The position numbers and the translations under genes are program-made. Shown one piece after another: positions 51,428 through 57,295 of a stretch of DNA of 64,000 nucleotides; the stretch's first letter is position 1; each line of letters opens with the position of its first letter. Below the pieces are notes generated by a model. The model was not told where the DNA came from. It was given only the letters and a program-made list of their open reading frames with translations, and made no database searches. Location of the stretch: NCBI RefSeq assembly GCF_009914755.1, contig NC_060931.1; one strand, given 5' to 3'. Origin of the DNA: the human T2T-CHM13v2.0 reference genome, Homo sapiens.

Positions 51428-51735
51428 CAAGTGCCACATTGTGAAAATCAGTGAGAAACAGGAAATGAAGGTGGCTTGTCCAATCTGATTCAAAGGCTTG
51501 AGGAGTTGTACAGTGGCCAATAGTCACACACATCCCATTAGTAACTACTTATTTAGGAATGAAATAAACACATTAATTTTCTTTCAATTTATGTGTAGTT
51601 TTTTTTTTAACGGTCACTAAATTTGTTAGAAGACAAATACTTAATGGTCAGTAAGTCCTCACTTAACATCATAGAGCAGTTCTTAGAAACTGCAACTTTA
51701 AGCGAAAGGACTTACAGCAGGTTGAAAGAAATAAC
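51428..51735 (-). repeat. Inverted copy of 56846-57160
   Basis: By-eye alignment: about 8 substitutions plus a 7-nt homopolymer-tract length difference over ~310 bp; mirrored ORFs in the track. Confidence 0.96.
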
Positions 51736-51736
51736 T

Positions 51737-52002
51737 CCTCATGATCCGCCCGCCTCGGCCTCCCAAAGTGCTGGGATTACAGGTGTGAGCCACCGCACTT
51801 GGCCTTTTTTTTTTTTTTCTTTTTTTTGAATCGTGTTTGAAATGTTTCTTGGATTTAACCTTTCTTTTTTTTCTGTAGTCACGTGCCAGTCTTGAATTAC
51901 TACAGTAGCATCTCTGGGGTTTTCAGTCTTGGCAAGAGATGAAGGACATCTTTTGAATGCCTTTCTTGTTCTAAATATATCTCCTATTTCTCAGTAGCCC
52001 TG
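51737..52002 (+). repeat. Direct copy of 47846-48102 (Alu 5' end plus unique flank)
   Basis: Shared unique sequence ttgaatcgtgtttgaaatgtttcttggatttaacc...ctcctatttctca(a/g)tagccctg. Confidence 0.96.
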
Positions 52003-52452
52003 GAGTTACAGGCATAAGCCATCATGTCCAGCCTGTTCTGCTTTTTACATATGGGCTATTACAGGACCTTTGTGTTTCTGTGTACATTTTAGAATTATTT
52101 TGTTAATTTGTACAAAAGCCTACTGGGATTTTGTAGGCATTGTATTGTATCTATAGTTAATTTGGGGGGGGAATTAATAGCATAAAAGTACTAAGTTTTC
52201 TAGTCCATGAACATGTTATATGTCTCCCTTTGTTTATGCTCTTCTTAATGCATTATTTTGTTTAGTGTATAGGCTTTGCACATCTTTCATATATTTATTC
52301 CTAAACATTTTATCTATTGATTTTACTCTAAGTAGAATTATTAAAAATATCATTTTCCAATTATTTGTTGCTGTATGTAGAAATACAATTGATTTTACAT
52401 ATTGATCTTGTATACTGCAACCTGACTAAATTATTTACACTCATTTTTCTAG

Positions 52453-52745
52453 TTTTTTTTTTGAGACGGAGTCTCATTCTGTCACCCATGCTGGAGTGCA
52501 GTGGCGTGATCTCGGCTCACTGTAACCTCCATCTCCCAGGTTCAAGCAATTCTTTCTGCCTCAGCCTCCTGAGTAGCTGGGACTACAGGTGTGTGCCACC
52601 ACGGTTGACTAATTTTTTTGTATTTTTAGTAGAGACGGGATTCCACCGTGTTAGCCAGGATGGTCTTGATCTCCTGACCTTGTGATCCATCCGCCTCGGG
52701 CTCCCAAAGTGCTGGGATTACAGGCGTGAGCCACTGTGCCCGGCC
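52453..52745 (-). mobile_element. Alu (AluS-like)
   Basis: Antisense dimer; TSD atttt(t/c)ctagttttt. Confidence 0.95.
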
Positions 52746-53462
52746 ATTTTCCTAGTTTTTATAGATTTTTTGGGATTTTTTACATTTATCCTCATACCAT
52801 TGTGAATAAAGATTGTTTTACTTCTTCCTTTCCAGTCTACCTTAATTTTGCCTTGATCCACTGGCTATTTTGAATGGAAGTGTTGAGAGCAGACATCATT
52901 GTCTTATTATTATTGATCTCATTTTGATCTTCAGTAGAATCATTTAGTTTTTCACCATTAAGGGTCACAGTAGGTTTTTATAGCTGCCTTTTATGAGGTT
53001 AAGAGAGCTCCTTTTTATTCTTTAGTTTCTGAGATTTAAAAAAAATCATGAATGACTTGAATTTTGTAAAATATTTCTTCTGCGTCAATTGAAATGATCA
53101 TGTTTCTTTTTCCCCTTTATTAAAAGGTAAATTACATTTATTGATTTTTGGATGTTGAACTGCATTTGGTTTTTGGATGTTAAAATGACTTTTTTTGTGA
53201 TAAAGTCCATTTGATCATGTTTTATTTTTTAATATTGGGTTTGACGTGCTATAAGTTAAGGCTTTTGCATCAATATTTATGAGGGATAAGGTCTCTAGTT
53301 TTTTTGTGAAATCCTTGTTTTTGGTATCAGAATAATACTGGCTTTGTAAAACAAGTTAGGAAATGTTTCTTTGTGTTTTGAAAGAGTTTATACAGGACAC
53401 ATTTTTATAAAAAAATCTTAAGTGATAGAATTCACGTTTTTCTTTTTTTAAGGAGACTTTTT

Positions 53463-53743
53463 GGCCGGGTGCAGTGGCTCATGCCTGTAATCCCAGCACT
53501 TTGGGAGGCTGAAGTGGGTGGATCAAGAGGTCAGGAGTTCAAGACCAGCCTGACCAACATGGTGAAACCCTGTCTCTACTAAAAATACAAAAATTAGCCA
53601 GGTGTGGTGGTGCGCATCTGTAATCCCAGCTACTCAGGAAGCTGAGGGAGGAGAATTGCTTGAACCCGGGAGGTGGAGGTTGCAGTGAGCCAAGATCGTG
53701 CCATTGCACCCCAGCCTGGGTGAAGCTCTGTCTCAAAAAAAAA
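53463..53743 (+). mobile_element. Alu (AluS-like)
   Basis: Sense dimer; TSD agacttttt. Confidence 0.95.
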
Positions 53744-54229: not shown

Positions 54230-54598
54230 GTTATTACAGTATTTTTGGTTTGGGATTAGCTGCATCTGGAGATTTTTTTATGGTTTATATTTTCATGGAT
54301 TAGCAAACTGCTGGTATAATCAACCCTAATACAAACATTATTTTATTTGTATAATTAGCAGTTTTAATATTTAACACTGTAACTGGCTTCATCTAGAAGT
54401 GATGCACCATGAGATGAGTACTTTATTTACTTATTGCATATAGTTCACAATTTAAAAAATCACCTGGGTTAAAAATAAAAACATCTATTTTTTTCACATG
54501 CCAAAGTGGTTCTTTATATCCTGTTCATCATATCTGTATATACAGATGTTAGTTGTAGTAACCAGTTTCACTCTACCTTTCCAAAAATTTTATTACAG

Positions 54599-54747
54599 AT
54601 GGAGCAGATGGTGCTTTTTACCCAGATGAAATACAAAGGCCACCTGTCAGAGTCCCCTCTTGGGGACTGGAAGACAATGTTGTCTGCAGCCAGCCTGCTC
54701 GAAACTTTAGTCGGCCTGATGGCTTAGAGGACTCTGAGGATAGCAAA
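54599..54747 (+). CDS. TAX1BP1: TAX1BP1 coding exon (probable exon 15; ~aa 646-695)
   Basis: tattacag|AT GGA GCA GAT...AGC AAA|gtaaat; (D)GADGAFYPDEIQRPPVRVPSWGLEDNVVCSQPARNFSRPDGLEDSEDSK; 149 nt. Confidence 0.96.
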
Positions 54748-56399
54748 GTAAATTGAATTTTCATTGTGTGAGCCTGTCCCTTTTTTATTTTTTAGCTTAT
54801 GTAGAGAGTTAAGGGTATGTGTGCATATGTGTATCTTTGTGCGTGCATGCGTGTGTGTGGAAGGAGAGTGTGTGCTTGTGCCTGCACACAATTGCCTACT
54901 TGATTTTTTGAAAACTGTGCTTGTATTTAAATTTGAAAAATCTACCAGTATGCTTCAGACTTATACTTTAGGATTTATATACTAAAGTAAAAGATTAAGT
55001 TTAGAGAATAATCTCAGAATATTGTAGTTATCAGATAGTTTAATCTTAAACATCACTAAGTAACTTACTATATTCTTTTGATTATAGATGTTAGGCTTGA
55101 AGCAGCAAAGTGTTAATGGCAGTGTTATGCTTCAGTGTACATCTTTTCTTTATAGCATTTATATCCCACTTTAGATTTTAGTGTGGACTCTTTATTATCT
55201 TCAGCCAGAAAAAGAGAAAAGTGTATGTATCATATAGTGGTTTTCTTTTTTGGAGAAATACTATTTGAGATGTCTTTAGTATTTAGGTAGGATTTCTTAT
55301 TCTCTGGCAGCAACACAATACTGATGATAATTGAATTAGTTTGTATAGCATGTCATTATTTTTGTAAATTTTATTTAAGAGATTCCTTCAATATTTAATG
55401 AATAGGTTTGTTTCCTTACAGCAGCTCTTTTTGGATAGATAATATGTTCTTTTCTTCATAGTAGCTCTTTTTGGATTTCCTGTGCATTAAGATGAATTTA
55501 AAAGAAATGCTTTATCGTGCTCTTTGCAAGTACAGTGGTATCATGACCTGTTTCTTATTTAATCTAGTTTGCTGCATTTAATTGCTATTAACCTTTGCAG
55601 AAACTGATCAGTGTTCAGACAGGCATGATTTTAGCCCTAGTGCTCAACACCCATAATGGAGAAAAATGTATTTCTCCCTCCTGCCTTTTGGCCTCCTGTG
55701 TCCATTACTGGGAATAATTAGGAAAACTGTCAGAACTTTTGTAGCCTATTTAAGGTCTAGAGTATCATCTTACTGCTTTTTCACACCTTTACTTCACATT
55801 TTGCATATTTAATCTGATCATTCTTGGCACAGATGTTACATGTGACAAGCCCTTCTCTTCCGTAGTCATCTGCTTCAGTTTAATTAGCAGAATGTTCTTT
55901 CTGATCTGTGTGCTTTGCCCTCCTGCAAACCCAGGAGAAGCAGTGTTAGAGTCTTGTGCTCATTTGCTGACATGCTTAGATTTGGTAATGAGATGGAGGA
56001 CTCTTAATATGCACACCTCGAGTAACTTTATTTTGCAGTCAGAAGATTTTTCACATTAGAAAGTAATTCTTATGTATATTCAGAATTAAAAAAAATTCTT
56101 GTTGTTACAACAACAAAAATCACTTGCAAATGAAGTGTTTTAGTAAGTAATTTTAGTAAGAATATGGAAAGCAAATTTGAGTTGACCTGTTCTTTCTTTC
56201 TGTTTCTCTGCCCTGGGAGTGATTAATAGCCACAGGCCCCAGCACTTTTGAGTCAGGGTTGAGGTGACCTACCTACTCTTTCAGCCTACCCTAGTGCCTA
56301 CACCTGCCATATCTCCTCTCTTCTGCACCAGAAACTGTGGTCAATTGTCAGATCAAAAACCTTTTGTGACTCCCGTTTACCTAATGATTGTAATAACTT

Positions 56400-56655
56400 T
56401 AACATCATAATTATGACAGCAGCAAACATTTCTATACCCCTCTTTGCCATTAATGCTGAACTCTTTAGATAGAGTCACTTATTTGTTCTTCATAGCAGTC
56501 CTATGAGGTAGGAATTGTTACTGTTACAACTTTATAGTGGAGGAAACCAAGAGACAGATTAAATAGCATGCCCCAAATCACTTAGCTGCTGTGGGTAGAG
56601 ACAGGATTGAATCTCATGAGATTGGCTATAGAAGTTGTGGTCTTAGCCACCTGTC
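56400..56655. mobile_element. MIR SINE
   Basis: cagtcctatgaggtagg...gaggaaacc...gcatgccccaaatcacttagct core. Confidence 0.65.
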
Positions 56656-56720
56656 AAATGGACTAAACCAGAGGTTTTCATACTTTCTTAGTTCTAGTAA
56701 CCCCTAGGCCAAAAGAAATA

Positions 56721-56932
56721 CAGTAAGTCCTCACTTAATGTCATATATAATAAGTTACTGGAAATTGTGACTTTAAACGAAATGATGTGTAACAAAACCA
56801 GTTTTTTCCCTCATCAACGTTGTAATGAACCGATGAAAGAATGATGTTATTTCTTTCAACCTGCTGTAAGTCCTTTCACTTAAAGTTGCAGTTTCTAAGA
56901 ACTGCTCCATGATGTTAAGTAAGGACTTGCTG
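56721..56932. mobile_element. MER6-like Tigger-family MITE
   Basis: Terminal inverted repeats cagtaagtcctcacttaatgtcat and atgatgttaagtaaggacttgctg; preceded by TA. Confidence 0.75.
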
Positions 56933-57295
56933 ACCGTTAAGTATTTGTCTTCTAACAAATTTAGTGACCATTAAAAAAAAAAGAAAAAACTACACATAAA
57001 TTGAAAGAAAATTAATGTGTTTATTTCATTCCTAAATAAGTAGTTACTAATGGGATGTGTGTGACTATTGGCCACTGTACAACTCCTCAAGCCTTAGAAT
57101 CAGATTGGACAAGCCACCTTCATTTCCTGTTTCTCATTGATTTTCACAATGTGGCACTTGCTTTATATCACAGCAACTGCCAAAACCAGCATCTCGAAGA
57201 TAAGATGGCATTGAAAGGAATGTGTAGCACATTTAAAGTTGAATCTGTGAGCGATCTCCAGTGACTGTAGTTGTTCACGTGGTATATGACAAATG

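What the first reader, a model, noticed from the sequence alone, without database searches (positions are those of the whole stretch)
51428..57160. New ~310-bp non-Alu inverted repeat brackets a frame-neutral two-exon module
Seen: the ~97% identical inverted pair (51428-51735 and 56846-57160) encloses only exons 54058-54229 and 54599-54747. Together they are 321 nt (195 nt with the short donor) and begin and end in phase 0. Known: intronic reverse-complementary sequences promote loop-out skipping, back-splicing and ADAR editing. These exons carry the serines (KRS, VPS) I recall as the IKKalpha sites S593 and S624, the latter numbered in the 747-aa isoform. Inference: the duplex, better matched than typical Alu pairs and with one unique partner, could drive in-frame double skipping that removes the phospho-linker but keeps the coiled coils and UBZs. 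That would be a lineage-specific splicing switch created by a repair accident.
Basis: partly seen in the sequence, partly recalled or inferred. Interest (0 to 1): 0.72.

Follow-up and report, generated by a model that had tools for sequence, protein, structure and literature searches.

The report
Templated insertion makes TAX1BP1 intronic inverted repeat
A 575-base patch copied from two nearby places into a TAX1BP1 intron left a near-perfect 310-base inverted repeat around two in-frame exons, but published circular-RNA lists show no sign that it changes how those exons are spliced.

Summary
Arms 51428-51735 and 56846-57160 are reverse complements with 300 of 308 aligned bases identical and one 7-nt T-run gap. 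They are the only two such copies in the genome. They enclose only TAX1BP1 exons 14-15 (321 nt, phase 0 at both ends, residues 589-695). That segment holds S593 and S666, which is S624 in the 747-aa form.

New here: arm L is half of a 575-nt two-template insertion (51428-52002). An inverted copy of 57160-56846 is joined to a direct copy of 47846-48102. The block sits inside an old Alu monomer that is otherwise intact. Junction microhomologies are 7, 0-1 and 2-3 nt, with no target duplication, which is a template-switch signature. The copies differ at 14 of 483 sites (2.9%).

In silico the arms are the strongest pairing across the module: net -391 kcal/mol against -236 for the best Alu pair.

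The splicing-switch idea has no support. In one catalogue 0 of 8 TAX1BP1 circles touch exons 14-15, and in another all 5 rows are exons 6-7. Skipping and editing could not be tested. My best reading is a neutral repair scar that forms an intronic dsRNA with little splicing effect.

The parts
51428..51735 (+). Arm L: inverted copy of 57160-56846. It is the first templated segment of the insertion. Bases 51428-51434 (CAAGTGC) are shared with the target Alu, so they are junction 1 microhomology.
56846..57160 (-). Arm R: the source copy. It consists of an old interspersed repeat plus the first half of a MITE-like element. Homology to that old repeat family runs on to 57185, 25 nt past the arm end, so this is the ancestral locus.
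51736..51736 (+). Orphan T at junction 2. It matches neither template, so this junction has 0-1 nt of microhomology.
51737..52002 (+). Second templated segment: a direct copy of 47846-48102. It holds the 5' ~65 nt of an antisense Alu, a T run and 188 nt of unique sequence. It ends in CTG, of which 2-3 nt are shared with the target Alu (junction 3).
   Evidence: (family D9)
47846..48102 (+). Source of the second segment. It is contiguous on the left with a full antisense Alu (47652-47913) and on the right with unique intron sequence.
51346..51434 (-). Left part of the old antisense Alu monomer that received the insertion.
52001..52033 (-). Right part of the same Alu monomer. It continues exactly where the left part stops, so no target bases were lost or duplicated.
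54058..54229 (+). TAX1BP1 exon 14 (codons 589-645 plus 1 nt). It contains S593 and has alternative donors after 54103 and 54199. All three donors look weak.
   Evidence: hub table
54599..54747 (+). TAX1BP1 exon 15 (to codon 695). It contains S666, which is S624 in the 747-aa form.
37681..37806 (+). Exon 13. It would be the donor of the hypothetical skip junction. It is also the back-splice donor of the known exon 6-13 circle.
56721..56940 (.). MITE-like element at the source locus, with 25-nt terminal inverted repeats (23 of 25 match). Only its half from 56846 to 56940 was copied into arm L.

Best explanation
The inverted repeat is a by-product of one replication or repair template-switch event in intron 13 of TAX1BP1. 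A broken end inside an old Alu monomer annealed through 7 nt of microhomology to the opposite strand 5.4 kb downstream and copied about 310 nt. It then switched to a template 3.6 kb upstream and copied about 265 nt in direct orientation. It rejoined the same Alu through 2-3 nt of microhomology. These steps are read from the sequence.

The event is old, since the copies differ by 2.9%, and it also appears to be present in the GRCh37 reference. Both points are inferred.

In the pre-mRNA the two arms should pair into a duplex of about 300 bp that closes a 5.1-kb loop holding exons 14-15. That is predicted, not observed. I think the most likely outcome is an intronic double-stranded RNA, probably A-to-I edited. 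It would be removed with the introns and would change TAX1BP1 isoform output little or not at all. That is inference.
For: Origin.
- The three junctions and the two templates are read.
- The target Alu aligns continuously across the insertion site.
- Each template has exactly one copy elsewhere in the genome.
- Family homology runs 25 nt past the arm end at the source only.

Age. There are 8 substitutions in 308 sites and 6 in 175.

Presence in GRCh37. From the end of exon 13 to the gene end is 29,677 bp in hg19 (coordinates quoted) and 29,670 bp here (hub table). A 575-bp difference is therefore excluded.

Duplex.
- The net cofold gain is -391.5 kcal/mol with 303 intermolecular pairs. The best of 12 cross-module Alu pairs gives -236.0 and the best of 12 pairs within intron 13 gives -287.4.
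- It is the top reverse-complementary match of 20 between the two flanking introns: 492 bits against 267 for the next.

Little splicing effect.
- 0 of 8 TAX1BP1 circRNA candidates in blood, cerebellum and liver reach beyond exon 13.
- 5 of 5 TAX1BP1 rows in a 20-tissue map are the exon 6-7 circle.
- Two further papers report only the exon 6-13 circle.
- The abundant exon 6-7 circle has inverted Alus 0.3 and 0.7 kb from its splice sites, whereas these arms lie 2.3 and 2.1 kb away.
- Longer repeats do not always circularise better (section read).
Against: I saw no RNA data for this locus: no linear junction counts, no editing calls and no duplex maps. 'Little effect' therefore rests on circRNA catalogues from a few tissues with low read thresholds, and on distance arguments.

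The duplex is by far the strongest cross-module pairing. Exon 14 has three weak donors and is already alternatively spliced. Intron 15 is 10.7 kb, so the duplex can form long before exon 16 is transcribed. All of these favour some skipping.

The presence in GRCh37 rests on length arithmetic and assumes the same annotated gene end. Gene conversion between the arms could make the event look younger than it is.
Confidence: 0.6

Rival explanations
1. The duplex loops out exons 14-15 and drives in-frame double skipping. The result would be a TAX1BP1 protein lacking residues 589-695 (both phosphoserines) that keeps the coiled coils and UBZ fingers, acting as a lineage-specific regulated switch.
For: The geometry and frame are right. 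The duplex is the strongest cross-module pairing. Exon 14's donors are weak. Opposite-orientation intronic Alus can shift a flanking exon from constitutive to alternative (abstract of PMC2533698).
Against: I found no report of such an isoform. The search for TAX1BP1 with circRNA and exon skipping gave 0 papers. The search for TAX1BP1 with 'inverted repeat' gave 2 unrelated reviews. The arms are more than 2 kb from the splice sites. Intron 14 is only 369 nt, and exon 13-14 splicing may be finished before arm R is made. No circle from these exons is listed, and I recall (not read here) that circularisation tends to accompany skipping.
Confidence: 0.12
2. The duplex mainly promotes back-splicing of exon 15 to exon 14, producing a 321-nt circular RNA.
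For: Inverted repeats of 30-40 nt suffice for circularisation in minigenes (abstract of PMC4201285). Here about 300 bp flank the exons.
Against: 0 of 8 TAX1BP1 circle candidates include these exons, although the exon 6-7 circle reaches 43-191 reads in the same blood samples. All 5 rows of a second catalogue are exons 6-7.
Confidence: 0.08
3. The repeat matters at the DNA level. The 308-bp arms, with perfect runs up to 106 nt, could mediate recombination that inverts the 5.1-kb segment. An inverted allele could not splice exons 14-15 and would encode the same in-frame 107-residue deletion.
For: The arms are in inverted orientation, 97% identical, with a longest identical run of 106 nt and a spacing of 5110 nt. 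The deletion would be in frame.
Against: No inverted allele was seen, and only one haplotype was available. The arms are short for efficient non-allelic recombination (this is recalled, not tested).
Confidence: 0.05
4. The pair is an assembly artefact or a structural variant private to this haplotype.
For: Only one assembly was read.
Against: There are 14 substitutions between the copies and their sources. An artefact or a recent event would give identical copies. GRCh37 has the same length to within 7 bp across the region (plus the hub table).
Confidence: 0.03
5. The two arms are independent insertions of one transposon family rather than a copy of each other.
For: Arm positions 1 to about 219 belong to an interspersed family: 38 other scored copies out of 460 candidates.
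Against: Those copies are only 71-80% identical, against 97% between the arms. The arms also share the same junction with half of a MITE-like element and the same internal truncation points.
Confidence: 0.01

Closest known systems
Inverted intronic Alu pairs and other reverse-complementary matches that flank skipped or circularised exons (PMC2533698 abstract; PMC4201285 abstract and one section; the wider literature is recalled)
   Same: Complementary sequences in the two flanking introns are expected to pair and loop out the exons between them. Competition with pairings inside one intron applies here too.
   Different: The arms are not Alu. They are 97% matched, against 75-89% for the Alu pairs in this window. 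They have a single partner in the transcript. No skipping, circle or editing evidence exists for them.
FoSTeS/MMBIR complex rearrangements (abstract of PMC2621351)
   Same: There are several template switches to nearby sequence, mixed direct and inverted copies, and short microhomology at the junctions.
   Different: The scale is tiny (575 nt, with templates 3.6 and 5.4 kb away). The block is inserted with no loss of target sequence. It is apparently old and harmless rather than a pathogenic copy-number change. One junction has 7 nt of microhomology and another has 0-1 nt.
Short local template-switch mutations that create inverted repeats and hairpins (abstract of PMC5453318)
   Same: Copying from the opposite strand creates a new inverted repeat in one mutational step.
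   Different: Those events are described as short mutation clusters. Here 308 nt were copied from kilobases away, and a second, direct template was added.
TAX1BP1 747-aa isoform (donor after 54103)
   Same: It is an in-frame removal inside the same linker between the coiled coils and the UBZ fingers.
   Different: It removes only 42 residues and keeps both serines. It is an annotated transcript, whereas the 107-residue deletion is hypothetical.
Known TAX1BP1 circles: exons 6-13 (hsa_circ_0134036, 1152 nt) and exons 6-7 (hsa_circ_0079668, 240 nt)
   Same: Same gene. The exon 6-13 circle uses intron 13, which holds arm L, as its downstream flank.
   Different: Neither contains exons 14-15. The exon 6-7 circle is flanked by a close inverted Alu pair (22440-22604 on + and 23886-24124 on -).

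Membership tests
Exon-flanking reverse-complementary intronic match (works like an inverted Alu pair) | Complementary sequences in opposite orientation, one in each flanking intron | tested here: met
   Arms lie in intron 13 and intron 15, 2322 nt and 2098 nt from the exons
Exon-flanking reverse-complementary intronic match (works like an inverted Alu pair) | The cross-exon pairing is at least as favourable as competing pairings within one intron | tested here: met
   -391.5 against a best of -287.4 kcal/mol; 492 against a best of 320 bits. In silico only.
Exon-flanking reverse-complementary intronic match (works like an inverted Alu pair) | An observed back-splice junction of the enclosed exons | tested here: not met
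   0 of 8 candidates; 0 of 5 rows. These are a few tissues and published lists only.
Exon-flanking reverse-complementary intronic match (works like an inverted Alu pair) | An observed skipping junction (exon 13 to exon 16), or A-to-I editing or duplex reads in the arms | not testable with these tools
   No RNA-seq, editing or duplex data were available. Literature searches found nothing relevant.
Template-switch (FoSTeS/MMBIR-type) templated insertion | The inserted sequence copies nearby genomic templates | tested here: met
   Templates lie 5.4 kb downstream and 3.6 kb upstream. Each has only one other copy in the genome.
Template-switch (FoSTeS/MMBIR-type) templated insertion | More than one switch, with mixed orientation | tested here: met
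   An inverted segment is followed directly by a direct segment
Template-switch (FoSTeS/MMBIR-type) templated insertion | Microhomology at the junctions | tested here: met
   7 nt, 0-1 nt (with one orphan base) and 2-3 nt, so 2 of 3 junctions are clear
Template-switch (FoSTeS/MMBIR-type) templated insertion | No target-site duplication or poly(A) tail, which excludes retrotransposition | tested here: met
   The target Alu monomer is continuous across the site
Alu element | Similarity to Alu / 7SL-derived sequence | tested here: not met
   The arms have no hit with an Alu query and no SRP-model hit, while the neighbouring Alus do

The most novel reading that the evidence does not exclude
The insertion created an ape-specific RNA switch in an innate-immunity brake. 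When the 300-bp duplex persists, for instance when dsRNA-editing or unwinding activity is low, exons 14-15 are looped out. The cell then makes a TAX1BP1 protein that lacks the IKK-type phosphorylation linker but still binds ubiquitin. This would couple the cell's handling of double-stranded RNA to how TAX1BP1 is regulated.
Probability: 0.07. Interest if true: 0.7.

Novelty: new member of a known kind. Interest (0 to 1): 0.35.

Why it matters
If the arms do pair, this is a clean natural test case. A single dated mutation placed a unique, near-perfect, non-Alu duplex around a frame-neutral pair of exons that carry known regulatory phosphoserines of an NF-kB and interferon brake. It would let one ask how far a strong duplex 2 kb from the splice sites can push skipping or circularisation without the many-partner ambiguity of Alus.

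As it stands, the solid result is the origin: a compact two-template insertion with all three junctions preserved. The available circRNA lists argue that a strong predicted duplex alone does not make a circle.

Tried and rejected
- A full-text search for the predicted hg19/hg38 exon coordinates matched only PubMed ids and unrelated numbers (1,266 papers, none relevant among the 20 listed).
- The Guo 2014 supplement holds no TAX1BP1 rows and not even the known circles, so it is uninformative.
- The Salzman 2013 supplement gives only per-gene counts.
- The Nicolet 2018 supplement was too large to read, and Jeck 2013 is not held.
- The search for TAX1BP1 with A-to-I and ADAR gave 3 papers. I opened one, and it only cites a TAX1BP1 paper.
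- A broad search for TAX1BP1 splice variants returned 20,067 papers. None of the 20 listed titles was about TAX1BP1 splicing.
- A repeat search for circTAX1BP1 spellings gave the same 15 papers as the first.
- Rfam found nothing in the arms and only sub-threshold Alu-derived hits nearby.
It did list the one biologically sensible solution, 65447-65529 plus 66337-66538, whose last exon was then confirmed by Pfam.
- I first read the sequence right of arm L as a separate young Alu fragment and the event as a single insertion with a deletion. Searches showed it is the start of a second templated segment and that the target is intact.
- I did not name the old repeat family or the MITE-like element, because no repeat library was available.
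Full report
**1. The observation**

The two arms are real. The repeat finder reports 51428-51608 against 56980-57160 (181 nt, 98% complementary) and 51599-51735 against 56846-56982 (137 nt, 96%). A gapped alignment joins them into 315 columns. Of these, 300 are identical, 8 are substitutions (7 transitions, 3 at CpG sites), and 7 form a single gap inside a T run. The longest perfect stretch is 106 nt and the BLAST E-value is 2e-143.

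Across the whole window, 59 inverted pairs of at least 100 nt were found. Among the 25 longest that were shown, only this pair exceeds 89% complementarity.

A search of the whole assembly scored 40 of 460 candidates. The two arms are the only copies above 80% identity, and the other 38 are 71-80% identical. Across 93 kb that covers the whole TAX1BP1 transcription unit, the arm has one partner. The only other hits are 20 and 32 nt long.

**2. What the arms are made of**

Arm positions 1 to about 219 belong to an old interspersed repeat family. I could not name it because no repeat library was available.

The remainder is the first half of a MITE-like element. Its other terminal inverted repeat lies at 56721-56745, outside the arm (23 of 25 bases match).

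At the downstream locus the homology to the old family runs on to 57185, 25 nt past the arm end. The upstream arm instead abuts Alu sequence on both sides. So 56846-57160 is the source and 51428-51735 is the copy. The arms are not Alu: an Alu query misses them, and the SRP model hits only their neighbours.

**3. How arm L arose**

A whole-window repeat scan showed a direct repeat immediately to the right of arm L (family D9). Alignment shows that 51737-52002 is a direct copy of 47846-48102, with 240 of 266 columns identical. In the 175-nt unique part there are 6 substitutions. That unique part has only these two copies in the genome (2 of 2 candidates).

The source at 47846 lies inside a complete antisense Alu, and unique intron sequence follows it. 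The copy begins one base after arm L ends.

Beyond 52002 the sequence continues the old antisense Alu monomer whose left part stops at 51434. When the two parts were put together in a script, they aligned across the junction to an Alu taken from the window. No target bases were lost or duplicated.

The event is therefore one 575-nt insertion built from two templates, the first inverted and the second direct. It has three junctions:
- Junction 1 has 7 nt of microhomology (CAAGTGC).
- Junction 2 has 0-1 nt, with one orphan T at 51736.
- Junction 3 has 2-3 nt (CTG).

These were read. This is the pattern described for template-switch repair (abstract of PMC2621351). It resembles on a larger scale the local template switches that create inverted repeats (abstract of PMC5453318). 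There is no poly(A) tail and no target-site duplication, so it is not a retrotransposition.

**4. Age and presence elsewhere**

The copies differ from their sources at 8 of 308 and 6 of 175 sites, or 14 of 483 (2.9%). From recalled figures, that is close to human-orangutan neutral divergence. The event would then date to roughly the early great apes, but the error is wide and gene conversion between the arms would bias the estimate young.

No other primate genome could be searched here, so lineage specificity is inferred only.

The hg19 coordinates quoted for the gene and for circTAX1BP1 give 29,677 bp from the end of exon 13 to the gene end. The same interval is 29,670 bp in this assembly (hub table). 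The 575-nt block is therefore also in GRCh37, provided the annotated gene end is the same base.

**5. The exons**

The reading frame of the twelve exons in the window is open in one frame only. In that frame exon 54058-54229 starts at codon offset 0 and exon 54599-54747 ends at offset 0. The module is 321 nt, or 195 and 291 nt with the two alternative donors.

I located the start codon at window -15409 and the next coding exon at -5907 to -5805. That gives 265 coding nt upstream of the window. The second of these exons matches residues 55-88 of the solved TAX1BP1 SKICH domain (5z7g).

Exon 14 therefore begins at codon 589, and the module spans residues 589-695. The serine in ELKRS is S593. The serine in VRVPS is S666, which becomes S624 in the 747-aa form. 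This agrees with passages on S593 and S666 (bioRxiv 10.1101/2021.01.07.425702) and with the abstract naming Ser593 and Ser624 as IKKalpha sites (PMC3112629).

The module has no Pfam domain. Exon 17 encodes two Zn-C2H2_12 fingers. Exons 16 and 17 lie at 65447-65529 and 66337-66538, so exon 13 joined to exon 16 would be in frame.

**6. Would the RNA duplex form?**

Cofolding gives the arms a net gain of -391.5 kcal/mol with 303 intermolecular pairs. The best of 12 Alu pairs across the module gains -236.0, and the best of 12 Alu pairs within intron 13 gains -287.4 (25 pairs computed in all).

An unbiased search for reverse-complementary matches gave these results:
- Between introns 13 and 15 there are 20 matches. 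The arms rank first (492 bits), and the next scores 267.
- Within intron 13 there are 50 rows (each pair listed twice), and the best scores 320.
- Within intron 15 there is one pair.

The arms lie 2322 nt upstream and 2098 nt downstream of the module and close a 5110-nt loop. Introns 13, 14 and 15 are 16,251, 369 and 10,699 nt long. All three exon 14 donors deviate from the usual consensus.

**7. Does it change splicing?**

I found no positive evidence.
- The published circTAX1BP1 (hsa_circ_0134036) is described as exons 6-13 and 1152 nt long (passages of PMC12713077). The eight exons 22880 to 37806 add up to exactly 1152 nt, which also fixes the module as exons 14-15.
- The same circle appears in a table of PMC9547997.
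- In the supplement of Memczak 2015 (PMC4617279, file 10), 8 TAX1BP1 circle candidates are listed. All 8 end at or before exon 13, and 3 of them use exon 13's donor. The strongest is exons 6-7, with 43-191 reads in blood.
- In Maass 2017 (PMC5660143, file 2), all 5 TAX1BP1 rows are that same exon 6-7 circle.

The exon 6-7 circle has inverted Alus only about 0.3 and 0.7 kb from its splice sites. Proximity therefore seems to count for more here than duplex strength. One section of Liang and Wilusz also shows that a longer repeat can circularise worse than a shorter one.

Linear skipping, editing and duplex reads could not be examined. Other supplements were unreadable or uninformative.

No paper in the searched library links TAX1BP1 with an inverted repeat (2 unrelated reviews). 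None links it with circRNA and exon skipping together (0 papers).

**8. Verdict**

The function is open. I put about 60% on a neutral scar that forms an intronic, probably edited, duplex with little effect on isoforms. I put about 12% on meaningful double skipping, about 8% on a notable 321-nt circle, and small odds on a DNA-level inversion role or an artefact.

It is a new member of two known kinds: exon-flanking complementary sequences and template-switch insertions.

Noticed in passing
window 51563-51609: In the sense strand of the pre-mRNA, arm L carries an AATAAA hexamer (51563-51568). A TGTGTAG motif and an 11-nt T run follow 24-40 nt downstream, an arrangement like a poly(A) signal. At the source locus the same sequence is on the antisense strand, so the insertion newly placed it in the transcript.
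   Followed up: no
window 22440-22604 and 23886-24124: The most abundant TAX1BP1 circle in the lists I read is exons 6-7 (22880-23206, 240 nt). It is flanked by an Alu in + orientation 276 nt upstream and an Alu in - orientation 680 nt downstream.
   Followed up: partly
window 1071-1375 and 3868-4172: The best-matched Alu pair in the window (305 nt, 89% complementary) flanks exon 3563-3750 (188 nt). Memczak 2015 lists a circle spanning 188 bp at hg19 27805452-27805640, which fits this single exon to within about 12 bp of offset.
   Followed up: partly
window 56721-56940: A MITE-like element of about 220 nt with 25-nt terminal inverted repeats (23 of 25 match) sits inside an older interspersed repeat. 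I could not name the family.
   Followed up: partly
window -24211 to 22880 (mostly outside the window): From the annotated gene start to exon 6 is 47,091 bp here. It is 45,790 bp by the hg19 coordinates quoted in PMC12713077, a difference of about 1.3 kb. This may be a structural difference between the assemblies or a different annotated start.
   Followed up: no
window 51737-51804 versus 47846-47913: The Alu part of the second templated segment differs from its source much more (about 11 of 68 bases, mostly at CpG sites) than the adjoining unique part does (6 of 175). The copy keeps CpGs that the source has lost.
   Followed up: no
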